The notes under the pieces are model-generated. The model ran no database searches and was not told the DNA's origin. It saw nothing but the letters and a program-made list of their open reading frames with translations. Positions 995 to 54,827 of a DNA stretch of 64,000 nt are shown piece by piece. The stretch's first letter is position 1, and every line of letters starts with the position of its first letter. The translations under genes and the position numbers were made by a program. This DNA is from Cyanidioschyzon merolae (Eukaryota): assembly GCA_000091205.1 (NCBI GenBank), contig AP006496.2; one strand, 5' to 3'.

Positions 995-1704
995 TCGTCA
1001 TTGCGACATGGATCTTTTGAGCTGTACGCTGAGCACGAAAGCGTTTCGTAATGTTCGCGCGCGCCTTGCTTGCTTTCGACTCGACCGGCTCGAGGAACGC
1101 GATGCTCCGCGAACATACACAGACCGGCGCACGGCTGCGTCTCGCAGTAACATGTTCGCGACCAGATGACCTGTCCCTGATAGCCCGACGCTCTGTATTC
1201 GTGAAATCGATAGTTGAGCACGAGCAGTGCCTCCTGGCCGACGGCAGAGAGCCCCGAAACTCCGCCAGGGAAAGCGCCGGCACTCGCGAGCGTCTCGACG
1301 GAGCTGGCGAGTCGACTCGCTGGATTCTGCGCTATGCTCCGCAGAGGCCCAGACTCGAGACCATCGAAGATCGTTTTCCGCGGCTTGTTCTCTGACGCTG
1401 CAGTGAACCGCCGCTGAGGCATACTGTGGCGAAAGTCTTCAGCGAGCCTGCTTTCTACGGCGACTCACACTTGCAGTCCTTGACTCGTGCAACAACTGGT
1501 GCGTATCAAAGTGCCAAAATGATGAGTCAAAGAAAAAGACCTTCAAACACCAGGAAACGCCTTATTGGTAAACAGAAAAGTCTTTTACCAAGAAAGGAAC
1601 GAGTGTCGAGTGGATGGACGGATTGCAGCCCCACATTGTTGCCCGAGCATGCGCCGGTGCTGCAGGCGACAGCGCCGTACCTCGGGTCGCCTCTCAGGTT
1701 CTTA

Positions 1705-2100
1705 GAGTCTTTCATTTGAATCGTGTTTCAATCCTCAAGTAAGTGTAATCAAGTGATTTTTCAGGGTTTGTAGCTGGAGCATTCAGAGTGTGTTCTTTTT
1801 AAAAAATAAACTTACGGGAATGGAAGTGAAGGATCCTGGAGGCCGTCATCGCCGGATGCCAGAGAAAAAGGACGAAAATTTCGATCTTCTCGCCGACCAT
1901 CGAGGGAGAAGTGCAAGTGACGAAGAAGAAGAAGAACAGGGTAGGTAGATGACAAAAGATGTTTGTCCGACAGGATGATGACGAGACTGTAGTCGAATAG
2001 AGGCCACGAGTTCTGGCAATCCTTGCGATGGTGAGTTCAACCAGAGGCAATGCACGCATGGAGATCGTGAACTTTGACTTTAACGCCACCATCAATACCA
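1705..2100 (+). mobile_element. 5' fragment (copy 4) of the multi-copy repeat family also found at 21.6-24.4 kb, 44.6-47.4 kb and 51.3-54.1 kb. It is truncated after about 400 bp
   Basis: It shares the conserved 5' box tcaatcgtgtttca..cctcaagtaagt..a.tcaagtgattttc, then ATGGAAGTGAAGGATCC (MEVKDPGG, compare MEVEDPGG in copy 1). Similarity is lost after about 2100. Confidence 0.5.
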
Positions 2101-2833
2101 GACGATGTGTGGTGCTGAAGACGACTGCTGACGATATGAGGCCATCTATGTTTGTTGGGAAACCTCTCAGATGCGAAGTGTGCTAGGAGAAACTGAAAAC
2201 GGCTGCAGGCGGCCAGTCAAAAAAGGCCGGGAGGCGTCTGAGAGGGAGTATATTTCTTTACACTCTATGGATCTACAGTTTTTTCGTTTCATTGAACACA
2301 AGGGTGCTTTTCCTTTTGATGGACAGAACGCTCAACATGACCAGGGACGCTGTATTGCGGTATGGATTCGGGTAACCGGTAATGCATCTGTCGGTCCATA
2401 CCCTTGGTTCAAGTTCTGGAAGCCACTCTTCGTACTTCCCCACGACGATACTGGTCATTCCGTACGTTCCATCGTGCGACGTTTCTCCTATGAGTTTTCG
2501 CAATAGTGCTTTTACAGTGCTGTTGCCAGCGCTGAATGTCCTCTGGCTGCCGGGGTGCTCGGATCACCGTCCAGGGTGTTGTCGGTCGCACCGCGATGCC
2601 ACTTGGGGAGCCACTCGGCATGCGCTTGGCGCGCTTCTGTTGTCCCTGCTTCTAAGGTCTTCGGTGACCTCGGCATCCAACGAGCGCCTTGACTACACCA
2701 CGCTCTAGTCGTCGGGATGTAACCTGAAGCAGCATCGTACGCGGAAGAGGTGAGGTTTACGTCCAGTGAACCGCGAGCATTTGCATATGCCCAGGGTGGG
2801 TGCCTCGACGCATCGACCCAGCGCCATCGACAC

Positions 2834-2857
2834 GTGTGTGCTGTGTGTGTGTGTGTA
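2834..2857. repeat. (TG)n microsatellite
   Basis: gtgtgtgctgtgtgtgtgtgtgtg read directly. Confidence 0.9.
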
Positions 2858-3490
2858 GCACACGAGGATCTAAAGCGTTAAACGAATGCCGCAGTTCTTC
2901 GCTGAAGAAGCACCACATACGCGACGTATTAAGCATGAGGCTCCCATCGACACGGGTGCTTTTGCGTTACGGTGGCACCCAGCCCGGCATAGCGTTAGCG
3001 CAACGACACTGTCGCTCCGTTTCGAAAATACGTATGGTTTGTGGCAGTGGGTGGGCCCTGAAGATATGGTGCGGGAACCGCGGACGCTCTCCCGAAGGTC
3101 GATGACAACTGCGCAGTCGGGGATCCGCGGACTCGGGCAAACCTTCCGTCCATGAAGAGAAACAGGCGCAACGCCCAATCGGGCCGCATCGTGTCTCAAC
3201 CGCAAGCTTCTGGTGCACTTCAGCTGCGCCCAGTTCGCATTTGCTGGGACTCGATAGGTGTTGGTATTCGACGGGTCGTACTGAGCAACGACATCGAGTC
3301 GCCATACAGGGCACTGCCAGCGTTTTCGTAGTTGCTGTCCCATTCAGGAGTTTATACGCGGCAAAACGCGCGCTTCGGACTCGGCACCGGCAAGTCGTCG
3401 CTACCACCGGGCGTCTTGCCGAGAAACTGGGCTTGGCATCGATTTCGCTGCAGTGAGTGGCCTTTATAAAAGTATTCTTACATAGTACTG

Positions 3491-20962: not shown

Positions 20963-21599
20963 TCTTCCTGCCGGCCAAAGTGTGTGTGTGCGCTAGTGCC
21001 TGCAACGCTCCTGGTACGCCTCGGGGGAGTATAACGGAGAATTGCTCGCGGGCTGGTGACCCGGGCGACGCGATCTCCGGGAGGGGCTTGAGGCGGCGCG
21101 CGCCATTGCGCAGCGTCACGCTTTCGTCTGTTGACTGGTGTTAACGAGAAACGTCCAATAATTGTATTTAAATGTATTAAATGATACAAAAATGAAATAG
21201 AAGCGTCAGCCTCATCTGGATGTGCTCGGAGCACGGAGACGGCTGCGACGATTTTTACGGTTTGACAGATCGCTCACATTGACCATGGATCGCAGAATGC
21301 GGAGTTGATGGATATTGGCTTTCAGGAAAGCGTCCATCATGCCGCTGCACCCTATCTTCAGTTTCCATTATTCACGCTTCCTTTCGGCTGTACTGCTCGT
21401 CTAGTACGTTCTATCGTGCGCTGAGTTCCTGCTTTGAGCAGCCGCCGTAGCGCCTGTACCACTTGAGCGAATGCATCACGGAGACAGAACGGCTTTTTCC
21501 GTACCACTGAGGGCGTTGGCTCGAGGCGAGCATCATCCGGCACGGGGTCGGTGTATATCATCATTGTGGAAGCCTGCAAACTGCGCAGACAGACCAAGA

Positions 21600-24361
21600 G
21601 CTTGCGGTAATGGGAAGCGATATGCAAGGAGACCATCGCGACCAGAGCGACGCCCAGACGGTGCCTACCCGCTCCTCGTCCCAGCGTAGACTGCATTGGG
21701 GACGAGTCGCTCAGATCTCACTAAAGCACGTGCAAATGGGGCGAGCATCAAGCACGAGCGTGGGAGACTCGTCTCGCGTGCGGGACCTTCCGCACAGGCG
21801 GCAACCTTTCGACAATACGGGAAGATTTTCCCTCTTTTCATGTTTATCGTTGAGGGGGAATGAAATCGTTACATCTTTGCTATTTAATGATTAGTCTCTT
21901 TTCTTTTTTCCGTATTGTGCGGTCGATACGCGCATCTCCATATCTGGCAGGCATGAGACACGACGTGCATCTCGCTGTTGAGGGGAAACGAGATCCTGAC
22001 CTTTAGTGTGCAGCTCTAACCTACAAGTTGTATTATGGTTGAAGTCATAGCAGAGTATGCTCTCTCGATTCAATCGTGTTTCAGCCCTCAAGCAAGTACA
22101 TTCAAGTGATTTTCCACGATTTATAGCGGACGCATTCGAAATAGGATCTTTTTCAAAAATAAAAAAGAAAAGTAATCGAAATGGAAGTAGAGGATCCCGG
22201 AGGCGCGGTGTCACCTGCTGGTGGAAAAAAACGAAAAACAGAGTCAAACGTAGAGGAACAAGACATGACGAAGAAGCAGAAGAAGAAGGCCCGACGCCAA
22301 AGGCTGCGAGAAAGATGACAATACTACGAGATTGTTGTAAAAGCCTGTCTTCTTGGATAAATCAAGGATCTGTACAAGCAAAAGTTACGAGAGGCCATCA
22401 GAAACTGTGTAGATTCGTACTCCATGAGTGGTATAAAGGCTTCGTCAGGGCTAATGCATTTGGTGAAGGAGCTGTATCGGGACCTGATGGAAATCAAAAG
22501 ACGCGTGGTTCCGGAAGGTTTATTCAACAAGACCTTTTTTCGCCACCTGATTGTTGGCACAGGGGCAGCGTCGAGAAGAGATGAGGGAATGCACGCCCTC
22601 TACGAAAAATTCGCCGAATTCCGCTTCGACGGTACTCGATACATGGGTGATGCGGATATTTACGGATGCGGGGCAATGAAGTACCTCACGAATCTGAAGA
22701 ACAATATGCTCAGTATCCTCGAACGTTTCATGTTACGTTCTATCTTTGCGCTGTACCCGGGCCTGTCTCGCAATGGGATATGGGGCATCATCGAAAGTAT
22801 CACGAACAATCGCCAGCATGAAGATAGGATCCAATCCGTCGACGACAAGACATCACGCAGGAGCAGGAATGAAGCTTCTGTATTGCGTACGGCTATACAG
22901 GAGCATCGTGCGGTACGGGGACTGGCGAATCCTGCAGAAAAGGTAACGGAAATGAAAAAAGATGTTATCACCTCATCCTAAGCTATTTCGTGCTTCTGGA
23001 CCGAGAACTCGAACGCAAGGCAGAGATGGAGCTGGGCGTGAGAAAAAATGAAGAGTCGTTGGAACGGAAGGCTTTCCTGATGTGGAAGCGCTTCAACGTG
23101 GTTCCGTTGTGCAACATCAAGTCACATTTTGTGACTATCGACTCCGGAGTCGTTCATGGCATCGTAAGGGAGATCAGTCCGGAGTTCGATGTAAGCAAGA
23201 TAGAGTTCACCGATGAAACGCGGGAGACGTACTGGAAGAATATCTTCGATTTCAAACGTCTCAAAGTGAGCAAGCAAAAGCAGTTCACTGGGATGATCGA
23301 AACCGATGGAGAAGCCATCTGCGTACATCATCGGCGCTTGAAAGCAGATCGTCCAGTTCCGTCCTCGGCTTCGCCCTCGGCGAAGCATGAAGAAAAGAAG
23401 GTGGCGGATCCTGCGACACAGAAAGTGCAGGACAACGACTTTGTCGTTGGCGCGGCCCCCGGGAACTTGAATATCACAACCATTGAAGCACCCAAGTGTG
23501 CGGAACATGGTGACGACGGCAACTGACGTCAGAAGGACATGCGTCTTGTAAAGTTCTCAAGGGCGAGGTATCGCCTAGAATCGTGAATAATGAATGCAAG
23601 GAAGAAATTTGGGACTTGGAATGCAGGAGTGAAGGAGCGCCTGGAAGCTATGAGCGCGGTGACGAACCGCGGAGCGGGCTTTGACTATTTTCGGGAATTC
23701 ATGGAAGTTCGCATTGCTCATTGGGATGCGCTGTGAGGGGAGTACACCAAGTCACGATTAGCTCGTAAGTGTATGAGACTGTACTGTGGGAAGCAGCTTC
23801 GCGTCGCGAACTTCTTCAATGAATTGAGCGCCCTCAAAGAGGATGAAAGGCGGAGGCTTGTAACAGCATACGGAGCAGGACGCTAGGCTTCCAAAAAAGG
23901 AGCATACCTGTTCCATCGACAAGAGTGTACAAGGAGTGCACACATCGTTTTCTCACGATACGGGTAGATGAGTTCTGAGCGTCGTATACACACTTCGAGC
24001 TGGGGTGTATACTCCAGAGGGTCGAGATGGAAAAGTGCCAGCGGAGCTCTAAGGATGTAAAAAAGTACGGAGCGCTGAAAGAACAGGAAATGGAACGGAG
24101 GGCACAGGTTCGAGAACTCCTTGCACTGGTGGGTACAACCAACGGGGGCAAGAAACGCATGGAGTTCGAGAACGGTGACTTGTTCTCGCCGCAATCAATA
24201 GAACGAGATATGCGGTCCCGGAGAAGAGACCCGACGCGCTAACACGATCTAAAATTCGCAGGGCAGCCGTGCAGTGTCGAGGTGTACAACGAGAAACTGA
24301 AACCAGTAGCAGAGGGCCGGTCCAAAAAGACTGGAGGCGTCTGCACGTCAGTTGGAGATGT
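21600..24361 (+). mobile_element. copy 1 of the 2.3-2.8 kb repeat family (putative Fanzor/TnpB-like element), with a decayed ORF
   Basis: The 5' flank 21600-22056, the 80-bp 5' box, the ORF and the 3' terminus ...ctggaggcgtctgcacgtcagttgga are all shared with the minus-strand copies at 44569-47400 and 51339-54090. Confidence 0.6.
22181..24242 (+). pseudogene. decayed ORF of repeat copy 1, with in-frame TGA and TAA stops at positions that are sense in copy 2, plus frameshifts. The RuvC-I-like box is mutated (AAPGN)
   Basis: MEVEDPGGAVSPAGGKKRKTE... RER* ...LLG*IKD... is one frame carrying two stops. Later it gives [19 protein letters not shown] and TRVYKECTHRFLTIRVDEF*ASYTHFELGC. Confidence 0.55.
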
Positions 24362-25675
24362 ATTGTCTATGGCGGTCACTCGCCACTAATGTGCACCGGT
24401 TATGCAGCGTTTGATGATTGAACGGCATGCCTGTGCTGGTGGTGGTGGTGCTGCGATGCGCAGGACGCACAAACTCCGGCCTGCGTCGTTGCATCGCAAG
24501 GAGAAAAGATACGTCAGGGCAGGAGCAGGCGCCTACGAGTATCCCGCCTGTCATGTCTGCGCGGTGCAGGTTCATTTGGTGGCTGTGCATTGGGTGCAGC
24601 GCGATGCACGCTTCTACAATGACTTGGAACTGTGTAACGCAACGATTGGCGGTAGCGGGTTGCATCGCTGTTACTTCATGGTGCAGGTGCAGCCGCTGTA
24701 TGTATCCCGCGAACTGAGGTACCACTCTCATCGATTCATGCACAAGCGCTGCGGCCATGCACTGATGCTGCGTTATGGGCGTCGGTGAATCGGCGAACAG
24801 GCTTCTCGCTCCACGGACTAACCTTCAAAAGCTTCGATCAAAAAGCCTCTGGGAGCGGGTTTTCTCGTTGCGGACCTTAAAAGGCGATACCGTACAATTC
24901 TGTTGGCATCGTATTCGGAAATCGCAGCAGAGGAGCGCCAAGCATTCCGTGGCTGGTTTGCGAGATTCGCTGTCTGCTAGGCGAGGACTATGGACCTGAG
25001 CCACTCCCGACGCAGTGCCAGGCGAGCATGCATGCCACCCCTGGCACATCGCTATGATGCTCATATGTTCAAGGTCCAAGTATGCCCAGCCACGGCCATC
25101 GCTCCAATGCTGACTTGCTGGTGTCAACAGGACAACACCCCGTCTCCGCAAGGCTATTTCTTTATGAACCGGCCATGTCCGGAAACGTAAGCATAGCATG
25201 ACAGAATCCTGTATGATATAGGATAGAGACGATGGTTTTTAATTCTCTAATCAGCAGGAGAGAGAGCGTTGCCAGCGAGCACGCTGCGCGAACAACAGGA
25301 ACGGTTAGTGGTCGCTGCTACCTCTTGTCACGTAGATTATCACTCGATCACCCAGATGCACTTGTGAGCGTAGCGCCCATCATCCCTGAATTCCGAATCC
25401 TAGTGAAATGTTCCCCATGAGTGATAAAACTTGCCTGTGTAGACGATCCCCAAAGCGCCGGTGGTGCTGTAGCCGTCCACCTGCTGCGCCTCCGGCTTGC
25501 GCAGTCCTAACGCAGATGACGCGTACGCTGTCGTGCAGCGCCACAGTGTTACGCCTACCTGTTGCCGTTCGGGTTAGGTAGGTTTTGTTTTCGGGCGCTC
25601 CGTCTTGGTGTAAGCGGTAGTCAGAGGTGCTCGGCGCAGGAGCAGCGACAACCGAGTGTTGCGCGTGCGTTTCCC

Positions 25676-35269: not shown

Positions 35270-36464
35270 TGGTATTCGGTGGCTCACCGGACTCTAGGCG
35301 ACTCGCGACATCATGGGACAGCGGTTTGTAGCAAAACCAATACCATGATCCAATACCTACATTCACGCCTGCACACTTCTCCTTTCCTTATGTGCAGAAT
35401 GCTCAAATCACATATGCGTCAGCTATCCTGCATTTCTGTTTCAAGGCAACACGTTGGCGCAGAGGCCTGCGCTGCTTTATGGACGCCGAGAAACGCTCAA
35501 AGTCTGCTTTCGACATCTTGCTCACAGCACGATGCCTAAAGCTCACTGTGCTTGTCACCTGAGATCATTGACCTGGTTCCGAAGGCAGATGCTCTTTGGT
35601 TCGTGGCCATCGACCCAGCGGCATTCAACAGCAGCATGTCGCCTGTCAGGGAGTACGCTCACAGAGCATCGCGGCTCCTGTGCCTACACAGCACCGTGTA
35701 CTGGACTCGGACCCTAGTTATCGCAGCGAGCGCCTCCACTGGAGAACGCGTCAGCGCTGTGCAAGACGCGCGCGTGGGCGAATCGCACCGCCGCGAATTC
35801 TTCGTCTGGCCGGACTTCCCTCTGGCACTTGTTTCATATGGGCAAGAAGGCGTCCCGCAAGTCCTTTATTGGAGCGAGCACCGTGCGCGTGCACATACAG
35901 CGAACAACGTAGATACCAAAGGCACCGCCCAGAACAAGCCCGTGATTCAGATGTACGGCACTGGGCGGGGATATGGAAGAGTGCATCGAGTGGAGCCTCC
36001 TGCACCCGCCAAGGGCGTCTACCGAGCACTGAGGCAAGCGTTCACGCGCCACAGAGCGGCGTTCAGAGAGGCACGTGTTCTTAACCTGCGAAAACACCTG
36101 AGTGCGATCAAATGTCATCGTGGTGACGGGCAGTCTGCGTCCGAGTACAGAGAGGATGAAAAACGGCAGACGGGTTGTGCATTGCAACTTCCGCTCGTGC
36201 ACGAAATGCGTCGACAACTGCCGGGAACGGCGCAGTCGGGACTTGAACGCTCCCGTCGACATCTGTCGACGGCTGACATCGCAGCTGGGAGAGGTTCATG
36301 AGCGACAGGCGCATGTAAATCCGAAGGTAAGAGAGAGCGAAAACAGCAGGCAGCTCAAAGGCACGCGGAGGCCCATGTTGGAAGGCATTGGCAATAGACC
36401 CGAACTTTTGAACGGACGCTCGAGTCATCTGTTTGTAGGCCTTCCCGTTTCGTCTGATATGGGT
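35270..36464. repeat. right arm of the large inverted repeat (1195 bp)
   Basis: See the left arm at 30934..32129. The spacer between the arms runs 32130..35269 (3140 bp). Confidence 0.95.
35552..36301 (+). CDS. second copy of the 249-codon hypothetical ORF, in the right inverted-repeat arm
   Basis: It is 98-99% identical to 31098..31847(-). Confidence 0.35.
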   Translation: MSPEIIDLVPKADALWFVAIDPAAFNSSMSPVREYAHRASRLLCLHSTVYWTRTLVIAASASTGERVSAVQDARVGESHRREFFVWPDFPLALVSYGQEGVPQVLYWSEHRARAHTANNVDTKGTAQNKPVIQMYGTGRGYGRVHRVEPPAPAKGVYRALRQAFTRHRAAFREARVLNLRKHLSAIKCHRGDGQSASEYREDEKRQTGCALQLPLVHEMRRQLPGTAQSGLERSRRHLSTADIAAGRGS

Positions 36465-36727
36465 GTAGGTATGCAACGCATCCGCGTGCTTGCGAACGTG
36501 CGTCGATTATGTACATAACTGGACACTACTGGCCACTTGCTCTGATCGTCGCCGCGGGGAGCTGGCGCACGGCCTCGGGGCCTGCCCTCGGCACCGGCCC
36601 CGCAGCCGATGCCGGTACGCGCCGTGGGCCGTGCCAATCCAGAATCGTATCCACGACACTAGTGCTTACGATTCGGTGTGAAGCACAGTTTTCGCAAGCC
36701 ACAGTTGTTCACTTTTGCGCTATCAAC

Positions 36728-43211: not shown

Positions 43212-44498
43212 TCATTGCCGCTTTAGCGAGTGGCGCTTTCCAGCGAACCTTTCAGTTGGAGCAAAGTTCTGCCTGTAAGCGTATAACGCTCCCACCGCCG
43301 CCCACGACCAGAGCAGACAGAAAAGCAGGAGACGCCATCGACGCGGGCGTTGTTGCTGATGCGGTTGTGGCCCCGAAGGCGATTCTGCGGCTTGGTTCTT
43401 TTTCGATGCTTTCGGAGGCTGCCCGATACTGAAGGACGGTTCGTCCATTAAACGGGTATTTTCATCGATTTTTTCGCGTGGAATCGTCATCATCGGCTCC
43501 TGGCTCCATGCTGAAGTAGGCGAGAGGCGCTGTCCAAAACGACTCAAAGCCCTCCATTCCTCTTCGCTCACCAGACCATGGAGTTCGCTATCAAGTGAAG
43601 CGTCGCCTTCGCCATTTGAATTGTTTGCTGGGGCGATCCTCAGTTGCAACCAGGAAGTGTAGAGACGTTCGATGCGCAGGTCGCCTACATTTTTAACATA
43701 TTGAGGCCACGGCGTCACGGGCACACCTGGAGTCAGAGAGAGACTGATTGGCGGCTCTGGTATGGCATCGTCTGGTGCGCTCCTGCAGGGCTCCTCAGGG
43801 CGCTCTCGAACGGCGGTGTTGGATTCAAGTTTCAGGAGCTGCATGGTGCTCCGGCTCCAGCACGCGTCCGCCGCGGTGACCGTCATCGCTTCGGCCTCGG
43901 GAAGGTCCGCCCATTGATAAGCAAGATCGTCGCCCCACAGTACCTCTGAGCTGTCAATAGTCATTTCGCCACGCCAGATATCGGTTGCGGACCACTGCAA
44001 GACGCAGACACTCTCGCAGCACTTTACCACTACGAAGCGTCCAAAAGCTGTATGAACCTTCAAAGCGAAGCGAACACGTACGATCGTATCGTCGAAACTG
44101 TATACAGGTACTTGCGGAGCTGCGTGGGGCTCAGTGTTATCTCCGAGCACGGCAACCAGCCACCGCACGGGTACAGTTCGCTCAAGGCGGCAACTCTGGC
44201 GATCCTGGTAACCATAGCAGTAGGAAAGCCGCCCATGGTGCGGGTAGCCCCAGAGCGTCTCAGCTGTGAGCGCACCCTCTGAGGCGTCAGCTGCTCGCAC
44301 ACAAGTCTGCGGCTGCTCGTCTGGTGAAGCACGCTCACTCCGCTGGAGTAGCACGCTTACGTCCCCACCTTCGCAGCTGGCGACTGGCCGTGGTACCAGA
44401 AATCGCAACCGAACTTGCATGATGCAGCCACTAGCTGCACTAGTTGAGCCGTTTTTCAAGACTCGCTGCTCAAGTCGAAAGTGACACCGGCCACACAC
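43212..44498 (-). CDS. hypothetical protein (428 aa) with a single C-terminal transmembrane helix (tail-anchor-like). Family not recognised
   Basis: The long ORF has balanced composition. A C-terminal RWRLLLFCLLWSWAAVGALYAY hydrophobic helix is followed by a short basic tail. The internal region is Trp/Tyr-rich and beta-like. Confidence 0.4.
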   Translation of the reverse strand: MCGRCHFRLEQRVLKNGSTSAASGCIMQVRLRFLVPRPVASCEGGDVSVLLQRSERASPDEQPQTCVRAADASEGALTAETLWGYPHHGRLSYCYGYQDRQSCRLERTVPVRWLVAVLGDNTEPHAAPQVPVYSFDDTIVRVRFALKVHTAFGRFVVVKCCESVCVLQWSATDIWRGEMTIDSSEVLWGDDLAYQWADLPEAEAMTVTAADACWSRSTMQLLKLESNTAVRERPEEPCRSAPDDAIPEPPISLSLTPGVPVTPWPQYVKNVGDLRIERLYTSWLQLRIAPANNSNGEGDASLDSELHGLVSEEEWRALSRFGQRLSPTSAWSQEPMMTIPREKIDENTRLMDEPSFSIGQPPKASKKNQAAESPSGPQPHQQQRPRRWRLLLFCLLWSWAAVGALYAYRQNFAPTERFAGKRHSLKRQ

Positions 44499-44568
44499 AC
44501 CAACAACGCCGTTCTACGTCGACCGACGTCAGTGTACAGTAGTGGCGAGAAACTCGCCCTGGCCAAGA

Positions 44569-47400
44569 AGTCTGCAACTGACGTGCAGACGCCTCCCTGT
44601 CTTTCTGGGCCGGCCACCGACTACATCTTACATATTCTTCTCATATAGTTCCACTTTGAGAGGTTGTCCAACAAAGTTCGTTCTTGGCGTCTCTGGAGGT
44701 CTCTTCTCCAGCACCGCACATCTCCATATATTTAATGGCGGCATTAAAATCTCGGTTCACGACTTCCATCCGTTTCTTGCCATTGATTGTACTCACTAGT
44801 TTAAGTAGCCCTCACACTTTTGCCCTCCTTTCCATTTGCTCTTCCGTCAGCGGTCCGTACTTTGCTATTTCCTCAGGACTCCGCTGCCACTTTTCCATCT
44901 CCACTCTCTGAAGTGTACTACCCAGGTCATGGTGTGTATACGACGTTCGAAACTCATCTACAGGTATCATAACAAAATGCCGTGCAAACTCCTTGTACGC
45001 CCTCGTCGTTGGAGCTGGCGTGGTCCCATTTTTCGACGCCGAACGCCCTGCCCCATAAGCCGCAACCAGCCTTTGACTTTCATCCTCCTTCAAGTCGCTC
45101 AAATGATTGGAAAAGTTGGCAAATGCCCGCTGCTTCCCACAATACAAATTCATACACAAAACGGGTCCACTGGAGCTTGGTATATTCATTCCACAGCGCA
45201 TCCCAATGAGCAATGCGAACTTCCATGAATTTCCGAAAAGCTTGAAAGTCCGCTCTGCGGCTCGTCACCTCGCCCATAGCTTCCAGGTGATCCATCATTC
45301 CTGCATTCCATGCAGCAATTTTCTTCCTCGCATTCATTATACCGACTTCTCGATAGAATCTTGCTCTTGAGAACCTCAACAGACGCATGGCTTTCTGACG
45401 TAATTTACCATCAGCACCATCTTCCACACGCTTGGGTACCGCAATGGTGATGACATTCGTATTCCCAGGGTCCGCGTCAACGACAGAGTCGCTCTCATGC
45501 ACTTTCTGTTCCGAAAGACCCGCCTCCTTCTCATCTTCTTGCTTCGCCACGGGCGAAGCCGAGGTCGGAAATGGCCGATCTGTCTTCAAACGCCGATAGT
45601 GTACACACATGGCTACTCCATCAGTTTCGCTCATCCCAGTGAATACATTTTGCTTGCTCACTTTGAGACGTTTGAAATCAAAGATATTCTTCCAGCACGT
45701 CTCCCGGTTCTCGCCGGTGAACTCTGTCATCCTTACATTGAACTCCGGACAGGTTTCTCTCATTATGCTGTACAGGACTCTGGAGTCGATTGGCATAAAA
45801 TGCGACTTGATCTCGCACCTCGGAACGACGTTGAAGCACTTCCCCATCCGGGCAGCTATCCGTTCCAACAACGCTTCATTTTCCCCACTCAGCTGCCTTT
45901 CGGCCTTGCGTTCGAGTTCCCGGTCCAAAAACACAAAATAGCGCAGGAAGAACGGATAACATTTTTCTTATCTTTTTTCGTAGCTGATACCTTTTCCGCT
46001 GTATTCGCCAGCCCCAAGACTGCACGGCGCTCTTGAACAGCGGCACAGATCACAGAAGCTTCATTCTTTCTCCTGCGTAATGTCCTCTTGTCGAAGAATT
46101 CGATCTCCCGTTCATGGAAGCGATCGTTCTTGATGCCATTGATGATGGCCCATATCCCTTTGCGAGATAGGCCCGGGCAGAGTGCAATCACGGCGCTTAT
46201 CATGAAACGTTCGAGATTCAAAGTCAAATGTTCGTTCAGGTTCTTGACGCACTTGATCGCCCCCTATGCGCAAATATCCGTGTTATACTTCTAGCGAGTA
46301 CCGTTGAGGCGGTAGTTGGGGTATTTTTCGTGGAGGGCATGCGCTCGATCGTTTCTCCTCGACGTTTCCCCAGTGCCGAACATCAAGTGACGAATAAAGG
46401 ACTTGTTGAAAAACTCTCCCAGAACGCCGACTATTTTGACGTCCTTCATATCGCGATACATCTTCCTCACCAAATGCATCAGTGCTAAAGAAGCGATGTG
46501 AACACTCATGGGGTAAGACTCGACACGGTTTCTCATCGCTTCTCGCAACTTTTGCTGGCAGGGATCCTTGATATGGCCGAGAAGACAGGATTTCACCACC
46601 ATAACGTCGTATGATCGTCTTTCTTGCAACCTGTGACGTAGGGCCTCCTGCCATGGCTTCTCCGCCTTGTCTCGTTCCTCTTTGCTTGGCTCTGTTTTTC
46701 GTTTCTTTCCGCCAGCCAGCGTTACTGGCGCTTCAGGATCCTCCATTTCCATTTCCATAACTTATCTTCTCTTTATTTTTGAAGACGAACGCACATGGAA
46801 GGGTTTTGCTGTAAACCGCGAAAAATCAATTGAATTAACTTACTTGAGGGTTTAAACACGACTGAATTGAAAGACTATAGTTTGCTCTGACTTTTACGCA
46901 TATACAACTGGGCCGTTAGAACAACAAGTCAACGAGTGATCATGATAGCGTCGCTCTTCTCAACGGTAACATGCGCGTCGTGCTCGTGACTGCCAGATCA
47001 CGAGGTGCGCTGACCGACCGCACTATATACCACGATAAACAGAGACCAGCTACTAACTAGCACCGAGATAACAATTTCTTTGCCCTCTACGATAAACGCT
47101 GAACGGAGAAAAGGTTTCCATCTATCGAAAGTTTACCTTCAAGGCAGAGGGTCTTGGGATCAGGGTGTCTGCCGGGCTTGCGCTCCGTGCAACTCTGCAG
47201 TGGCGAGTGGCGTGACGCGACCTGAGCTGCTCGTCCCCAACGTAGTTTATTCTTGTAGAACGGGCAGATAGGCTGCGTCTGGGCGTCACACTGGTCACGC
47301 TGGACTCCTTGTAAATCGCTTCCCGCTGCCGCAGGCAGTACGCCTGTCTGCGCAACTTGCTGGTTCCCAGAGTGCTTATGAATCGCGACCCCGTGTCGAG
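44569..47400 (-). mobile_element. copy 2 of the repeat family (putative Fanzor/TnpB-like element). It is the most intact copy and retains the D-A-D-P-G-N box
   Basis: The 3' terminus (on + coordinates 44569-44800) tctgcaactgacgtgcagacgcctccctgtctttct...ttccactttgagaggttgtccaacaaa matches 51339-51470 and the reverse complement of 24250-24361. The 5' box lies at 46780-46880. The 5' flank to about 47400 matches 53600-54090. Confidence 0.6.
44812..46758 (-). pseudogene. ORF of repeat copy 2, split into four frame-shifted pieces (46291..46758, 45889..46227, 45080..45934, 44812..45213). It is a putative TnpB/Fanzor-like RuvC nuclease with a degenerate zinc finger
   Basis: The N-terminal basic stretch GGKKRKTEPSKEERDK looks like an [25 protein letters not shown] is RuvC-I-like (compare TnpB vGIDlGiknlatlsdG). 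RLLRFSRARFYREVGIMNARKKIAAWNAGMMDHLEAM resembles the TnpB helical bundle (l.r..rkk.ks.nrkKar.kiaklh.kianqRkD). TTRAYKEFARHFVMIPVDEFRTSYTHHDLG aligns with TnpB l.YKAe..G..V..VdP.YTSQ.Cs.CG, but both Cys pairs are lost. Confidence 0.45.
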
Positions 47401-47843
47401 TGCACCACCCCTAGAGCCCACGCTCTCAATGGTATGGCAAAAACGTCCTGTCGCCGCGATGCATCGGCTCCAGTAAGATAGGCGGTATGCTGGGTACTTA
47501 CGATAGACACGCGGCTCACGATAGAACGTACAAAGCGACCACTACATCTGAGTACAGGTGATGGAACTTGAAGATAAGCCCATCATGATGGACGCTTTCT
47601 CAATAGCCATTATCCATACATCCCAAAATCTGGAATGTATGGACCATGTAAACGTTTTGGTTTCGAAAACAAATCGGACACCAGAGCGACGCACGGCATC
47701 GAAGCGCTCACGTCAATTAAATAGCGAGCGCGAGGCGGTATCGGCCCTGGAACTTGTGGTAGCGGCAGCGCCAGCGTCAGAGGAGTTTCGTGGGATAGCT
47801 GCTTTGTGCTGCTTGGCCATGGCAATCCACAACTAACTCAGAT

Positions 47844-50924: not shown

Positions 50925-51338
50925 AGGTTTTGTCGGAGGTGCTTGCTCGTGTCCAGCTTTTTACTGCGAAGCGTGTGCGGAGTATCGGGCTCGAGCGACT
51001 GCCTGAAGGGGGGAGGGGGGTGACGAAGCCGAACGGGGAAAGCGTATAACGTTTGATGCAGTTTTATAGGAAGGACGGTTTAAAGCATGTTTTGCTTCGC
51101 GACGCTTTTACAATACGACTTGATTGCGCGCTTCGAATAGCCTGCCGCGTACTGGAAAGATCGCTGTGGTACGCGTAAATCCATTACAAACTTTTGAGCT
51201 GGTGCTGCCTGAGTATTCAGATTATGCTGGGGAAAGATCTGTCAATGGTCTTGCCTCATCGCTTTTTATCCAACTTCGGTGCGACCTTCGCAGCGGTGTA
51301 CAGTGGTAGCGGTGAACGCGTCCTAGACATGACGTCTC

Positions 51339-54090
51339 CAACTGACGTGCAGACGCCTCCCCGTCTTTCTCGACCGGCCACCTACTACTGACTTCAACTT
51401 TTTTTCATATAGTTCCACTTTGAGAGGTTGTCCAACAAAATTCTAGCCTGTCAACTGTGGAGGTCTTTTCTCCATCACCGCACATCTCCGTATAATGATT
51501 GCGGCGTTAAAGTCTCGGTTCACGAAATCCATACGTTTCTTGCCATCATTCGTTGTACTTACTAATGCAAGTAGTCCACGAACTTTCGCCATCTTTTTCA
51601 TTTGCTCCTCCGTCAGCGGTCCGTACTTTTGTATATCCTCGGGGCTCCGCTGGCGCTATTCCATCTCCACAATCTGAAGTGCGCACCCCAGTTCATGGTG
51701 TGTATGGGACGTTCGGAAGTCATCTACGGGTATTGTAACAAAACGCCTTGCGCACTCCTTGTACGTTCTTGTCGTTGGAGCTGGCGTAGTCCCTTTTTGG
51801 GTCTTCAAGCGCCCCTGTCCGTACGCTACTACGAGCCTCTGACTTTCATCCTCCTTCAAGGCGCTCAACTCATTGAAAAAATTCGCGAATGCACGCTGCT
51901 TCCCACAGTACAAGTTCATTCGCAGACGAGCCCACCGGGGCTTGGTATACTCCTCCCACAGCGCATCCCAATGGACAACACGAACTTCCATGAATTTCCG
52001 GAAAGCTTCAAAGTCCGCTCCACGGATCGTCACCTCGCTCAAAGCTTCCATTTGATCCTTCATTCCTGAATTCCAATTCCCGATTTTCTTCCTTGCATTC
52101 ATGATTCCCGATTCTCGATTGTATCTCGCTCTCGAGAACCTCAAATGACGCAGGTTTTACCTACGTAAGTTTCATTCAGTGCCATCTTCCCGACGCTTGG
52201 GTACAGCGATGGTTATGATATTCGTGTTCCAGGGACTAAGGCCGAAGACAAAGTTGTTTTCGTTGGGATTATACGTCCCATGGCCCGTCTTCTTGTTTTC
52301 GTGCTTCGGCAAGTGAGATAATGAAGACGGGATAGGACGACCTGCCTTCATCCGCTGATAGTGTACACATATGTATACTCCATCGTTATCGATTGTCCCA
52401 GTGAATACCTTTTTTTGCCCGGTTTGGGACGCTTGGAATCGAAGATATTCTGCCAGTAGGTGTCCCGGTCTTCGCTGATGATCTCTTTGTTGGTTACATC
52501 GAGCTCTGGACAGATCTCCTTCATGAAGTTGTAAAGGACGATGGAGTAGATATTCACAAAATGTGACTTGAACTCGCATAACCGAACACCAATGAAGCGC
52601 AACCGTAGAAGCGATTGAATATCATCTCTCCAACTCTTCATTTTTTCCATACTCAGCTCCATTTCGGCCATGCGTCCGAAATTGGTCCAAAAACATGAAG
52701 TAGGGGAGAATAAGGGATAACATCTCTCTTCGTTTTTTCTCATATCTGACAATTCTCCTCTTGGGTTGACAAGCCCCAAGACCGAAGGATGCTTTTGAAT
52801 AGTCGCGCGGATAACAGAAGCCCTATTTTTTCTACAGCATGATGTACCCTTGTCGATGAATTCAATCTCCTGTTCATGCTGGCGATCGTTTTTCATACCA
52901 TCGATGATTGCGCATATCCCTTCACGAAACAGGCCCGGATACAGCGCAAGGACGGCGCGTACCATGAAACAATCGAGGTATACGATCTTATTTTTCCTCA
53001 CATTCGTGAGGCACCTCATTGCCCTGTATTCGTATGTATCTGCGCCACCCTTGTATTTGGCACCGTAAAAGCGCGAGTTTGCGTAATTTTTCGGAGAGCA
53101 TGGACTGTCCCATTTCTCCACGAAGTTTCCCAGGTGCCAAACATCAACTGGCTGACAAAGGTCGTGTTGAAAATTTCTCCCTCTCCAAATGCACCAGTCC
53201 CAAAAGACGCGTTACAAACATAGCTTGAGCACGAATCGCCATCGTTTCTGAAGGCCTCTCGCAACTTTTCCTTGTACGGATCCTTACCATGCCCAAGAAG
53301 ACACGATTTCATCACCATTTCATCGCTCTGTCGTCTTTCTTGCAGCATTTGACGTAGGGCCTCCCTTTTTTGCTTCTTTGCGTTATGCTATTCCTCTACA
53401 CTCGGCACAGTCCTTTGTTCTCTTCCGGCGGCCGGCAATACCGGTCATCCAAAAACCTTCTACCTCCAGTTCCATAAGTTTTCTATTTTATAAAAAACAT
53501 TATGGACGCTTCTAGTTTAAACGGCGGCAAAGCAGTAAAATACTTTAACTTGAATATTGAAACACGATTGAAGTAATACCGACACTTTGCTACCATTTGA
53601 TCGCAAACACAACTGGCCCCGATACAGCCGCAGGTCAAAAAGTAGCCATTATCGCATTTCTCTTCACCGGCGAGACAGGTTGCGTGTTGTGACGGCCACA
53701 TATCGTGGTTCGCGTACGGGCCACACAATACAAAAAAAGAACGGAGTGTGGCCGATTACTAGCAACGAGGTAACGGTTCCTTTCCACATCTGTTGCAGAC
53801 CTTGAAAAGAGGAACCTTTTGCTCATGGTCTAACGATTACCTTAGAGGTGGAGGGTCCCACAAACCGGAAGACGCTACCTGCTTTTGCTCCGCGTGACTC
53901 TTAGTGGTGGAGAATGTGACGCACCTGAGTATCTCGTCCGAATCGCGTATGGTTCTGGGACTAGGAGCGGGTGTGCTGCATTTGGGCGTCACCTTGGTCG
54001 CGGTGGACTCCTAGTATACCGCTTCGCGCAACCGCAGGCTGATGGTCTGCATGTACAGCTTGGGGGCTCCCAGAAATATAAATAGCCCTG
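51339..54090 (-). mobile_element. copy 3 of the repeat family (putative Fanzor/TnpB-like element), decayed
   Basis: Its termini and ORF are homologous to copies 1 and 2. The 5' box is tgaaacacgattga at 53551-53564. The flank 53600-54090 matches 46900-47400. Confidence 0.6.
51656..53477 (-). pseudogene. decayed ORF of repeat copy 3 (pieces 53016..53348, 52348..53121, 52172..52579, 51656..52144). The RuvC-I-like box is mutated (LSPWNTN)
   Basis: The N-terminus MELEVEGFW...RRKRTKD...* carries a stop. [26 protein letters not shown] is the RuvC-I-like box. The C-terminal piece is TTRTYKECARRFVTIPVDDFRTSHTHHELGC. Confidence 0.5.
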
Positions 54091-54827
54091 ATTCCGTTTT
54101 GCGTGAACCAAGCCTCTTCTGACGCGCTCAGTGGTATACCAAGGCTGTTCTGTTTCCGTAGCGCATCCGCACCAGCGCCTTAATCGCGACGGTGGGTGCA
54201 TACGACTGGCACTCGACGCACGAGAGAACGTATGAAACGGCCAGTGCATTCGAGAACTGGTAAAAGCGATGGAACGTACAGATATTGCTCAGCATGATGG
54301 ACGCTTTCCCGAAAGGCAATATCGATCCGGCAAGCTGGGATACATGGTCAGTGGAAATGTTCTGTCGAACTAAAGAAAGCATATCGCGGGAGGGAATTCC
54401 TTAATGGCTCTGGTGTTCGAAGCATCGCCTTGGCAGTGCGTATGCGCTGATATCATCCTGCCGGAGGGAATTCCCTTATACTTCCGCTGGGCCGAGCCCT
54501 TGCGTTCAGCGGCGAAGTTTATCCACGATCGTCGTGATCTCCGAGCGGAACGTTGCGCAGCGCTTAGCGCGAAGTACTTGCGAGGTTACTGGTCGGAAAA
54601 CTGGGAGCTTTACCTAGTTTCTGAAAAGGACATAGACCACTTGTGCTAGTTCCACTCAAAGCTTGAAATTCTACAGGAGGCTTAGGTAAGAATCTGTGCA
54701 ATTGACGGACGATCACTCGTGCAGCTACACAACAGAGGTTTTTGACTGGATACGCACGCTTACGCGAACCTTCCTAGGTGGTGACGCACTCGGCAGCTTT
54801 GCACCGGAGAAAACCTAATCCAAGAAA

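What the first reader, a model, noticed from the sequence alone, without database searches (positions are those of the whole stretch)
44569..47400. Multi-copy 2.3-2.8 kb element whose decayed ORF carries TnpB/Fanzor-like RuvC signatures in a eukaryotic algal genome
There are three full copies (21600-24361 +, 44569-47400 -, 51339-54090 -) and one 5' fragment (1705-2100 +). They share termini and a roughly 650-codon ORF that is broken differently in each copy. Copy 1 has in-frame TGA/TAA at codons that are sense in copy 2, and all copies have frameshifts. The ORF has an N-terminal KKRK basic stretch. It has a D-A-D-P-G-N-T-N-hydrophobic box where TnpB/Cas12 carry the RuvC-I GIDxG box, and this box is intact only in copy 2. 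It has a Lys/Arg-rich helical segment. It has YKE(F/C)ARxFVxIPVD(E/D)FRTS, which aligns with the TnpB bridge YKAexxGxxVxxVdPxYTSQxC, but the zinc-finger cysteines are replaced (YTHHDLG). This pattern of degeneration fits an old, inactive Fanzor-like (eukaryotic TnpB) family, or a domesticated derivative. Such families have not, to my knowledge, been characterised in this kind of alga. Because every copy is broken, the whole family could instead be an unrelated decayed gene family that matches these short motifs by chance
Basis: partly seen in the sequence, partly recalled or inferred. Interest (0 to 1): 0.8.

Follow-up and report, generated by a model that had tools for sequence, protein, structure and literature searches.

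The report
Decayed copies of known Fanzor1 transposon

Summary
The window is from Cyanidioschyzon merolae 10D. It contains three full copies of one element, each about 3.15 kb, and one internally deleted copy. A majority consensus of the three copies gives a 734-aa ORF. A profile of this ORF and its homologues matches solved Fanzor1 structures (Parasitella Fanzor1, E = 2.6e-15). An AlphaFold model of an intact homologue superposes on SpuFz, GtFz and PpFz (Foldseek E about 1e-15, TM 0.6-0.68). The Fanzor RuvC triad is invariant in the family: D in xDPG, the relocated E in VDEFRTS, and D in RDxNAAxNI.

This is not new. Bao & Jurka (Mobile DNA 2013) described this family as CMe-1A/CMe-1: 3,169 bp, about 150 copies, 734 aa, no TIRs. 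Their consensus aligns end to end with the three copies at 82%, 83% and 77% identity.

All window copies are pseudogenes, with 2-3 or more frameshifts and 5-8 stops each. The missing zinc-finger cysteines are a trait of the whole clade, intact members included, and are not decay.

Three minor additions:
- The 3' end is structured in a strand-specific way and ends in a hairpin, making it a candidate ωRNA.
- The nearest intact relatives sit in Tc1/mariner-type transposons.
- A second, divergent Fanzor1 remnant with a DDE_3 transposase lies at 26.2-28.4 kb.

The parts
44495..47665 (-). CMe-1A copy 2 (the flagged copy), full-length pseudogene element
   Evidence: It aligns to positions 7-3137 of the published 3,169-bp CMe-1A consensus at 82.9% identity. 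The 5' and 3' junctions were mapped. It has 3 frame changes and about 5 stops.
44560..46758 (-). Remnant of the 734-codon Fanzor1 (CMe-1) ORF in copy 2, split over ORFs 46291-46758, 45889-46227, 45080-45934, 44812-45213 and 44641-44796
   Evidence: Based. The consensus was rebuilt. The stop position was projected from the published consensus.
46693..46713 (-). N-terminal basic stretch GGKKRKT (NLS-like)
   Evidence: Located. It is conserved in the published CMe-1 protein. Its function was not tested.
45455..45478 (-). RuvC-I motif DADPGNTN (catalytic Asp, consensus D431)
   Evidence: The Asp is nearly invariant (at least 90%; P0052 has Asn), and G433 two residues on is invariant, in the 13-sequence family alignment. 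The motif is intact in copy 2 only. It aligns to the DPGR motif of Parasitella and Spizellomyces Fanzor1.
45043..45066 (-). VAAYGAGR strand: the canonical RuvC-II position, where Gly replaces Glu
   Evidence: A568, Y569 and G570 are invariant or near-invariant. Loss of the canonical Glu to Gly or Pro is the published Fanzor signature (PMC10530073). The positional correspondence is inferred from the motif order.
44941..44964 (-). PVDEFRTS: relocated RuvC-II glutamate (consensus E603)
   Evidence: It is invariant in the family. It aligns to DEFRTS and DEYKTS of solved Fanzor1 proteins. It lies 33 residues after the AYG strand.
44734..44757 (-). NRDFNAAI: RuvC-III aspartate (consensus D672)
   Evidence: It is invariant in the family. 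It is the only segment touched by Pfam PF07282, and that match is below threshold.
44495..44621 (-). Structured 3' end. The last ~60 nt of the ORF plus ~65 nt downstream form a three-stem junction closed by GUAGGUGG/CCACUAC, followed by a long terminal hairpin. Candidate ωRNA scaffold and/or transposition signal.
   Evidence: Based on RNAalifold, pair counts, the sense versus antisense folding asymmetry and a covariance-model hit of 111 bits.
46759..47665 (-). 5' non-coding ~900 bp of copy 2. According to the 2013 paper, the first ~635 bp correspond to the separate element TE-N2_CMe. It contains a subterminal hairpin at 47608-47648.
   Evidence: Based.
21260..24440 (+). CMe-1A copy 1, pseudogene. 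The ORF remnant lies at about 22181-24367.
   Evidence: It is 82.4% identical to published consensus positions 4-3154. It has about 8 stops and 2-3 frame changes. The RuvC-I D is changed to A, and RuvC-III is frameshifted.
51255..54370 (-). CMe-1A copy 3, pseudogene
   Evidence: It is 77.2% identical to published consensus positions 5-3142. It has about 7 stops and 2 frame changes. The RuvC-I D is changed to S, and the RuvC-II E to D.
1703..2290 (+). Internally deleted CMe-1A copy (consensus 786-965 joined to 2849-3083, plus a degenerate 3' end)
   Evidence: Based. The covariance-model hit at 2205-2323 is weak (E = 0.15).

Best explanation
The region is one of three decayed full-length copies of CMe-1A in this window of Cyanidioschyzon merolae 10D; a deleted fragment of a fourth copy is also present. 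CMe-1A is a published, old, multi-copy DNA element with no TIRs. Its only gene is CMe-1, a Fanzor1 protein.

Shown here:
- Identity with the published family.
- Membership of the protein in the Fanzor1 lineage by profile and fold.
- Conservation of the Fanzor-type RuvC triad in the family (D, relocated E, D).
- Pseudogene status of every copy in the window.

Inferred by homology with characterised Fanzor1 and TnpB:
- In intact copies the protein would be imported into the nucleus through its N-terminal KKRK stretch.
- It would bind an ωRNA transcribed from the element's 3' end. That RNA would overlap the ORF tail and run into the flanking DNA, which supplies the guide.
- It would cut matching DNA with its single RuvC site. 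This would favour retention or homing of the element rather than catalysing transposition itself.

The enzyme that actually moves CMe-1A is unknown, because the element encodes no transposase. The copies in this window can do none of this. They are fossils.
For: Organism: five window ORFs are exact matches to C. merolae 10D proteins BAM81395-81403, which lie on an 852,727-bp chromosome.

Identity with the published family:
- Bao & Jurka 2013 describe CMe-1A as about 3 kb, about 150 copies, about 80% identical to the consensus and without TIRs, with some copies intact.
- Their supplementary table gives 3,169 bp and 734 aa.
- Their consensus sequence aligns to the three copies over positions 4-3154, 7-3137 and 5-3142 at 82.4%, 82.9% and 77.2% identity.

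Fanzor1 membership:
- The family profile matches PDB Fanzor1 chains: 9cf0 at E = 2.6e-15, 8gkh at 2.7e-6 and 9cer at 0.011. The match includes the RuvC-I and RuvC-II/III segments.
- The AF2 model of homologue P0040 has pLDDT 80.8. Its best Foldseek hits are SpuFz, GtFz and PpFz (E 5e-16 to 1e-13, TM up to 0.68), followed by Cas12f.
- E603 and D672 are invariant and D431 is nearly invariant.
- The Fanzor rearranged glutamate is documented in PMC10530073.

Decay.

Past function: divergence between copies is greater at codon position 3 (0.32-0.36) than at position 2 (0.21-0.23). There are 5,547 representative relatives, and most of the top 150 are full length.

3' RNA candidate: 87.9% of cells are paired, against 36-57% in shifted registers. 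The z-score is -2.2 to -3.4 on the sense strand against -0.2 on the antisense strand.
Against: - No Pfam TnpB model reaches threshold. The best is PF07282 at E = 0.039 on one homologue.
- A single-sequence search of PDB finds nothing.
- The C4 zinc ribbon, part of the original 2013 motif definition, is absent.
- The fold evidence comes from a homologue only 43-44% identical to the consensus protein, not from a window sequence.
- The ωRNA is not demonstrated. Compensatory changes are few: 12 pairs, 1 of 500 shuffles. Much of the strand asymmetry in folding energy is compositional, because shuffled sequences show it too. The covariance model finds nothing in the 40%-identity relatives.
- Nuclease activity of this zinc-finger-less lineage has never been tested.
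Confidence: 0.93

Rival explanations
1. This is an unrelated decayed gene family that matches short RuvC-like motifs by chance.
For: Pfam and single-sequence PDB searches are negative.
Against: The profile search hits only Fanzor1 in the whole PDB, at E = 2.6e-15 over more than 300 aligned positions. The fold search gives Fanzor1 and then Cas12f. The family was published as Fanzor1.
Confidence: 0.01
2. This is a domesticated, host-retained derivative of Fanzor rather than a transposon gene.
For: The clade has lost the zinc ribbon, which could hint at a changed function. Codon-position bias shows past selection on the protein.
Against: There are three copies in 64 kb, all with frameshifts and stops. 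About 150 copies are reported genome-wide. The element ends are defined and recur at unrelated loci in 80 metagenome contigs. Most of those copies are broken too.
Confidence: 0.02
3. CMe-1A is a transposase-less derivative of a Tc1/mariner (DDE_3) transposon that carried Fanzor1, and it was mobilised in trans by such a transposase. This rival concerns mobility only. It is compatible with the Fanzor1 identity.
For: The closest intact relatives (P0041-P0043, about 40% identical) lie directly downstream of a DDE_3/HTH_Tnp_Tc3 transposase. They sit inside ~30-bp TIRs that end in TATA. The window itself holds a decayed DDE_3 gene followed by a divergent Fanzor1 remnant at 26240-28410.
Against: None of the three copies has terminal inverted repeats linking its two ends, and the 2013 paper also reports none. 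No TA duplication is evident at the junctions. The 5' 900 bp shows no similarity to DDE_3.
Confidence: 0.2
4. CMe-1A is moved by a single-strand (HUH) mechanism, in the manner of Helitron2 or IS200/IS605, and uses its terminal hairpins as signals. This rival also concerns mobility only.
For: - There are no TIRs and no recognisable TSD.
- A long 3'-terminal hairpin shows compensatory variants between subfamilies (CGTTCGA/TCGAACG against CGTTTTTC/GAAAGACG).
- A subterminal 5' hairpin is present.
- The 5' junctions are consistently preceded by a T-run. Helitron2 elements of Chlamydomonas insert after TTTT and carry Fanzor1.
- A head-to-tail junction occurs at window ~2290-2300.
Against: No asymmetric terminal inverted repeat (ATIR), the defining Helitron2 feature, was found by eye, and there is no CTRR end. 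No RepHel or Y1 transposase was seen in the window or in the fetched loci, although no dedicated search was made. The T-run could belong to the element. G·U-rich stems fit an RNA role better than a DNA role.
Confidence: 0.2
5. This is a prokaryotic TnpB/IS605 insertion, contamination, or Fanzor2 rather than Fanzor1.
For: There is general homology to the TnpB/Cas12 RuvC core. Cas12f chains appear in the fold search at E about 1e-4.
Against: The sequence is embedded in a finished eukaryotic chromosome between exact C. merolae genes. The protein is 734 aa with a large N-terminal half, as in Fanzor1. The only PDB sequence hits are three Fanzor1 proteins. There is no TnpA or serine recombinase.
Confidence: 0.01

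Closest known systems
CMe-1A element / CMe-1 Fanzor1 protein of Cyanidioschyzon merolae (Bao & Jurka, Mobile DNA 2013, PMC3627910)
   Same: It is the same family. The published 3,169-bp consensus aligns end to end with all three copies at 77-83% identity. The ORF is the same 734 aa, and the host, absence of TIRs and ~80% divergence from the consensus all match.
   Different: Nothing essential differs. The window copies are degenerate individuals. My junction mapping suggests the 3' hairpin extends about 10-20 nt beyond the published consensus end. A T-rich stretch regularly precedes the published 5' start.
Structurally and biochemically characterised Fanzor1 nucleases: SpuFz1 (8GKH, 9CEU-9CEZ), PpFz (9CF0-3), GtFz (9CER-T)
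   Same: They share the overall fold (TM 0.5-0.68), the RuvC-I DPG motif, the relocated glutamate in DE(F/Y)(R/K)TS, the RDxNA RuvC-III motif and the hGLL motif before the last strand.
   Different: Sequence identity is only 12-16%. The CMe-1 clade lacks the CCCC zinc finger of the NUC/TNB domain that SpuFz1 shares with ISDra2 TnpB. No ωRNA or activity data exist for it.
Mariner/Tc1-borne Fanzor1 elements (for example PUl-1, -2 and -4 of Pythium ultimum in Bao & Jurka; metagenome loci L083-L088 here)
   Same: The closest intact protein relatives, about 40% identical, belong to this type. A decayed example lies in the window at 26.2-28.4 kb.
   Different: Those elements have a DDE_3 transposase, ~24-33-bp TIRs and TA duplications. 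CMe-1A has none of these.
Helitron2 non-autonomous elements CRe-1, -2 and -3 of Chlamydomonas reinhardtii, which carry Fanzor1
   Same: Both are algal, high-copy and transposase-less, carry a Fanzor1 ORF, have hairpins at the ends, and have a T-rich sequence at the 5' junction.
   Different: No ATIRs and no RepHel partner were identified for CMe-1A. The 2013 authors left its class 'unknown'.
Bacterial TnpB of IS200/IS605 (for example ISDra2)
   Same: It has the same RuvC nuclease core, and by analogy a guide RNA encoded at the 3' end overlapping the ORF.
   Different: In TnpB the canonical RuvC-II Glu is present, the zinc ribbon is present, and the protein is about 400 aa and partnered with TnpA. 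The Pfam TnpB models do not reach threshold on CMe-1.

Membership tests
CMe-1A (published C. merolae Fanzor1 element) | End-to-end nucleotide similarity to the published 3,169-bp consensus (copies are reported as ~80% identical) | tested here: met
   blastn gives positions 4-3154 at 82.4%, 7-3137 at 82.9% and 5-3142 at 77.2%. The consensus was taken from the paper's supplementary file.
CMe-1A (published C. merolae Fanzor1 element) | Host genome is Cyanidioschyzon merolae | tested here: met
   Five neighbouring ORFs are exact matches to C. merolae 10D proteins.
CMe-1A (published C. merolae Fanzor1 element) | A single 734-aa ORF and no terminal inverted repeats | tested here: met
   The three-copy consensus gives 734 aa, the same length as the published protein. 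No inverted repeat links the ends in any copy.
Fanzor1 | RuvC-I aspartate in a hydrophobic-x-D-x-G strand | tested here: met
   D431 is nearly invariant in the family (at least 90%; P0052 has Asn). It is present in copy 2 and mutated in copies 1 and 3. It aligns to the DPGR motif of PpFz and SpuFz.
Fanzor1 | Rearranged RuvC-II: the canonical Glu is replaced by Gly or Pro, with an alternative conserved Glu some tens of residues downstream | tested here: met
   The AYG strand (G570) is followed by invariant E603 in VDEFRTS, 33 residues later. The feature is defined in PMC10530073. The assignment of G570 to the canonical position rests on motif order, not on a structure.
Fanzor1 | RuvC-III aspartate in RDxNAAxNI | tested here: met
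   D672 is invariant. It is intact in copies 2 and 3.
Fanzor1 | C4 (CxxC...CxxC) zinc ribbon between RuvC-II and RuvC-III. This is part of the 2013 motif D-X-[TS][TS]-X-X-[C4 zinc finger]-X-RD. | tested here: not met
   There is no CxxC pair in the consensus, in the published CMe-1 protein, or in the 92 top representatives and 6 further intact family members whose segment could be extracted: 82 have no CxxC, 10 have one and none has two. The authors of the motif nevertheless classed CMe-1 as Fanzor1, so the feature is not universal within the family.
Fanzor1 | Significant sequence similarity to experimentally characterised Fanzor1 proteins | tested here: met
   hmmsearch of the family profile against PDB finds only three Fanzor1 proteins, at E = 2.6e-15, 2.7e-6 and 0.011.
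Fanzor1 | Fanzor1 fold (WED/REC/RuvC/NUC architecture) | tested here: met
   The AF2 model of homologue P0040 (pLDDT 80.8, pTM 0.72) matches SpuFz, GtFz and PpFz by Foldseek at E 5e-16 to 1e-13, with TM 0.5-0.68. This was tested on a homologue, not on a window sequence.
Fanzor1 | ωRNA encoded at the 3' end of the element, overlapping the ORF end | tested here: inconclusive
   A conserved, sense-strand-specific structure with a terminal hairpin is present. Covariation is sparse, there are no expression data, and the covariance model finds no match in distant relatives.
Fanzor1 | RNA-guided double-strand DNA cleavage | not testable with these tools
   This needs biochemistry on an intact CMe-1 protein.
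Prokaryotic TnpB (Pfam OrfB_IS605 PF01385 / OrfB_Zn_ribbon PF07282) | A score above the Pfam gathering threshold | tested here: not met
   Only PF07282 appears, at E = 1.3, 0.23 and 0.039 and 9.7-14.5 bits against a cut-off of 26.3. PF01385 was not reported.
Tc1/mariner-type Fanzor1 carrier | DDE_3 transposase, TIRs and TA target duplication | tested here: not met
   CMe-1A has no DDE_3 similarity and no TIRs. The relatives L083-L088 do have them.
Helitron2 non-autonomous element | A 3' hairpin, a 5' hairpin and short asymmetric terminal inverted repeats | tested here: inconclusive
   The 3' hairpin is clear. A 5' subterminal hairpin is present. No ATIR was recognised by inspection. No RepHel partner was searched for genome-wide.

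The most novel reading that the evidence does not exclude
The CMe-1 lineage is a large branch of Fanzor1 that has dispensed with the CCCC zinc finger of the NUC domain: more than 5,000 representative proteins in public data, and most of the top-scoring ones are full length. In C. merolae it rides an element that has lost the Tc1/mariner transposase and TIRs still present in its nearest relatives. That element may now depend on its structured, G·U-rich 3' end, acting as an ωRNA and/or as a single-strand transposition hairpin, possibly for Fanzor-assisted homing. If so, it would be a zinc-finger-less RNA-guided nuclease from an organism that grows at about 42-45 °C and pH about 2 (my own knowledge of C. 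merolae), coupled to an uncharacterised way of moving.
Probability: 0.15. Interest if true: 0.5.

Novelty: already known. Interest (0 to 1): 0.15.

Why it matters
As a discovery it does not matter. The element, its copy number, its consensus and its Fanzor1 protein were published in 2013, and later surveys list Fanzors in rhodophytes.

The case is useful as a calibration. A reader with no tools identified a TnpB/Fanzor nuclease from short motifs in broken ORFs. Standard Pfam models missed the family entirely, and only a family profile or a fold search recovers it.

Small residual value lies in three points that I did not find stated in the papers I read:
1. The whole clade lacks the zinc ribbon that the original motif definition treats as strictly conserved.
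2. The element's 3' end carries a conserved structure on the sense strand, with a long terminal hairpin. This gives a concrete candidate ωRNA for an experimentally tractable alga that grows at high temperature.
3. The nearest intact relatives are Tc1/mariner passengers, and a decayed example sits 2 kb away from copy 1. This bears on the unresolved classification of CMe-1A.

Tried and rejected
- Pfam on eight ORF fragments, on the consensus and on six homologues gave nothing significant.
- phmmer of the consensus against PDB gave nothing.
- The fold_alignment tool on the 242-column 3' alignment returned an empty structure. RNAalifold with ribosum scoring in a script did give one.
- A covariance model of the 3' structure found only the CMe-1A copies themselves. 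It found nothing downstream of Fanzor1 in the ~40%-identity relatives L082-L088, so conservation across families remains untested.
- I tried to define the exact ends and target site from empty sites in related strains. The contigs carrying the neighbouring acetyl-CoA synthetase and phosphatase genes (L089-L091) hold the same insertions, so no empty site was obtained.
- I tried to place the clade taxonomically through cluster names. Ten representatives carried no organism names. Only a Gonium pectorale hypothetical protein is named.
- I looked by eye for TIRs or Helitron2-type ATIRs between the 5' end and the region upstream of the 3' hairpin. Nothing was convincing.
- I checked whether the 249-aa ORF in the 99% inverted repeat is Fanzor-derived. 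The result was only a weak hhalign match (probability 17%), with no homologues outside the species.
- I rejected the idea that the frame breaks are introns. The breaks differ between copies and are accompanied by in-frame stops, and the published consensus is one continuous ORF.
Full report
**Observation**

Repeat finding confirms three long related segments at the stated places. Copy 2 (about 44.5-47.7 kb, minus strand) is 79-81% identical to copy 3 (about 51.3-54.4 kb, minus strand). Both are 74-80% identical to copy 1 (about 21.3-24.4 kb, plus strand), and similarity runs along the whole length. The '5' fragment' near 1.7-2.1 kb is an internally deleted copy: a piece around the ORF start is joined to the 3' end.

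ORF listings show the reading frame split into different pieces in each copy. A majority-rule consensus of the three copies restores a 734-codon frame after two frame joins. Measured against that protein, each copy needs three or four frame segments and carries 5-8 in-frame stops.

The quoted motifs are all present. The RuvC-I box is intact only in copy 2. The glutamate box is intact in copy 2; in copy 1 the glutamate is kept but a stop codon follows DEF, and in copy 3 it is changed to Asp. The RDFNAAI box is intact in copies 2 and 3.

**What the protein is**

Pfam finds nothing significant on the fragments, on the consensus or on homologues. The only trace is PF07282 on the RDxNAAxNI segment, far below its cut-off. 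A single-sequence search of PDB is empty.

A search of 5.8 billion proteins returns 52 relatives. These include intact 600-750-aa proteins at 29-64% identity and one named protein from the green alga Gonium pectorale. In the 13-sequence alignment, E603 (VDEFRT) and D672 (RDxNAAxNI) are invariant and D431 (xDPG) is nearly invariant (at least 90%; P0052 has Asn).

A profile of that alignment hits exactly three proteins in the whole PDB, all Fanzor1:
- Parasitella parasitica, E = 2.6e-15.
- Spizellomyces punctatus, E = 2.7e-6.
- Guillardia theta, E = 0.011.

The alignments run through the TDG strands, the DPGR RuvC-I motif and the DEFRTS...RGLL...NRD C-terminal core.

An AlphaFold2 model of the intact homologue P0040 (pLDDT 80.8, pTM 0.72) has the seven Fanzor1 chains as its best Foldseek matches (E 5e-16 to 1e-13, TM up to 0.68). 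Cas12f comes next, at about 1e-4.

That glutamate is the relocated RuvC-II residue that distinguishes Fanzors and TnpB2 from canonical TnpB. The canonical position is occupied by Gly or Pro (PMC10530073); here it is the invariant AYG strand 33 residues upstream.

An exhaustive profile search finds 5,547 representative relatives at E ≤ 1e-3 and 724 at E ≤ 1e-30, so this is a large lineage.

**It is already known**

Five neighbouring ORFs are exact matches to Cyanidioschyzon merolae 10D proteins on an 852,727-bp chromosome.

Bao & Jurka (Mobile DNA 2013; PMC3627910), the paper that named Fanzor, list one Fanzor1 family in C. merolae. They describe it as CMe-1A: about 150 copies, each about 80% identical to a ~3-kb consensus, no TIRs, TSD undetermined, class unknown. 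Its 5' 635 bp is shared with TE-N2_CMe, and some copies are still intact. Their supplementary table gives 3,169 bp and a 734-aa protein.

I retrieved their consensus. It aligns to the three window copies over positions 4-3154, 7-3137 and 5-3142 at 82.4%, 82.9% and 77.2% identity. Its ORF is 734 aa and begins MEKEVEDPGGPVSPAAGKKRKT. The 2023 survey of 3,655 Fanzors also lists rhodophytes. The finding is therefore a correct rediscovery.

The replaced zinc-finger cysteines are not decay. The published intact consensus has the same THHELGC...VRGLLALVSTT segment. In 92 top-scoring representatives and 6 further intact family members whose RuvC-II to RuvC-III segment could be extracted, 82 have no CxxC, 10 have one and none has two. 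In the profile alignment the CPKC and CxxxxC cysteines of Parasitella Fanzor1 face non-cysteine columns. This contrasts with SpuFz1 and ISDra2 TnpB, which share a CCCC finger, and with the 2013 motif definition. It is a lineage trait.

The family was also under selection for a long time. Differences between the copies are 0.32-0.36 per site at third codon positions, 0.21-0.23 at second positions and 0.32-0.38 in the 5' non-coding part. Part of the divergence therefore arose while the ORF was functional, before each copy decayed. That fits the 2013 authors' remark about long-lasting coding capacity, and it does not fit a domesticated single-copy gene.

**Element anatomy and likely mechanism**

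I fetched 80 related loci from hot-spring metagenomes. Most are broken as well.

The 3' junctions are sharply defined. Conservation continues about 40 nt past the point I first took as the end, through an imperfect palindrome (...CACCGYTGGCGTCGTTCGA CTT TCGAACGGCGTTGRTGGTG) that forms a 15-19-bp terminal hairpin. Subfamilies carry compensated variants of its inner stem.

Upstream of this hairpin, the last ~60 nt of the ORF and the next ~30 nt fold into a three-stem junction closed by GUAGGUGG/CCACUAC. On 52 distinct copies, 87.9% of cells are paired, against 36-57% in shifted registers. Twelve pairs show double changes, a level reached by 1 of 500 shuffles.

Several stems use G·U pairs, and the structure is specific to the sense strand: the z-score is -2.2 to -3.4 on the sense strand and -0.2 on the antisense strand. 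However, much of the raw energy asymmetry is compositional. A covariance model scores the three window copies at 99-111 bits but finds nothing in the 40%-identity relatives.

This is what an ωRNA scaffold overlapping the ORF end would look like, as described for Fanzors. It could equally be, or also be, a single-strand transposition signal.

At the 5' end, the copies start at the published CGATGACAAAACG, regularly preceded by a T-run, and carry a subterminal hairpin. No inverted repeat links the two ends.

My best account is as follows. Intact CMe-1 is a nuclear, ωRNA-guided RuvC nuclease that promotes retention or homing of its element. The enzyme that moves the element is unknown. The window copies are inert. 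The first statement is homology-based inference, not something shown here.

**Relatives and the mobility question**

The nearest intact relatives (P0041-P0043) lie immediately downstream of a DDE_3/HTH_Tnp_Tc3 transposase, within ~30-bp TIRs ending in TATA. They are therefore Tc1/mariner passengers, a known arrangement for Fanzor1.

The window itself contains a decayed DDE_3 gene (26240-27223) followed by the C-terminal half of a second, divergent Fanzor1 pseudogene (27704-28410). CMe-1A may therefore descend from such an element. Alternatively, given its hairpins, the T-rich junction and the lack of TIRs and TSDs, it may move like Helitron2 or IS200/IS605 elements. I could not decide between these. 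Related strains carry the same insertions, so no empty site was available.

**Verdict**

The Fanzor interpretation is correct. The claims of novelty and of degeneration are not. Novelty: already known. Interest is low. The modest residue consists of the clade-wide loss of the zinc ribbon, a concrete ωRNA candidate, and the neighbouring DDE_3 plus Fanzor1 remnant.

Noticed in passing
window 26240-28410 (+): A decayed DDE_3 (Tc1/mariner/IS630-type) transposase gene lies at 26240-27223. It is 26% identical to the intact 401-aa ORF of L084 (E = 1e-14) and has 7 stops. It is followed at 27704-28410 by the C-terminal half of a second, divergent Fanzor1 pseudogene (matches P0042 residues 429-676, E = 5e-25). 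The gene order is the same as in the intact metagenome relatives. The 2013 paper lists only one Fanzor1 family for C. merolae.
   Followed up: partly
window 30934-32129 and 35270-36465: A 99% identical inverted repeat with 1,196-nt arms 3,140 nt apart. Each arm holds an intact 249-aa ORF (31098-31847 on the minus strand, 35552-36301 on the plus strand). The ORF has no Pfam match. Its hhalign similarity to the AYG...PAP...FR region of the Fanzor family is weak (probability 17%, E = 1.4e-3).
   Followed up: partly
window 2290-2503 (+) and 3023-3164 (-): Two divergent copies of the CMe-1A 5' end, possibly solo TE-N2_CMe-like elements. The first begins directly after the degenerate 3' end of the internally deleted copy, giving a head-to-tail junction (...GGTG|CTTTTCCTTTTGATGGACAGAACG).
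   Followed up: partly
L083-L088 (metagenome contigs of 3.5-4.9 kb): These are intact elements of about 3.4-3.6 kb with the order [DDE_3 transposase]-[Fanzor1, 698-702 aa]. They are bounded by ~30-bp TIRs (TATACTCTGTATACTAAATAATGGAACACC ... GGTGTTCC...GAGTATA). The right TIR lies about 150-180 nt after the Fanzor1 stop. They are apparently active relatives of the CMe-1 protein and could be better experimental material than CMe-1A.
   Followed up: partly
top-scoring representative proteins (P0119-P0266): All members of this Fanzor1 clade that I examined replace the CxxC...CxxC zinc ribbon with a conserved ...DEFRTS(x15-50)VRGLLWCxST(x4-10)FVNRDxNAAxNI segment that has at most one conserved Cys.
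   Followed up: partly
L076 4143-6548 and L077 5070-7475: An 801-aa ORF starts inside the C-terminal part of a Fanzor copy (MERMSKVRGLLALVSRTSDGKKRMEFVNRD...) and reads on into unrelated downstream sequence. It may be a read-through or fusion, or an artefact of ORF calling.
   Followed up: no
L001 6001-8259 (P0001): This is the most complete metagenomic CMe-1-like ORF (752 aa). It carries a ~75-residue internal expansion made of repeated 'KHEE.K.A.PATQ.VQDNDF.VDA' units just before the RuvC-I motif. The linker between the WED strands and RuvC-I therefore tolerates tandem duplication.
   Followed up: no
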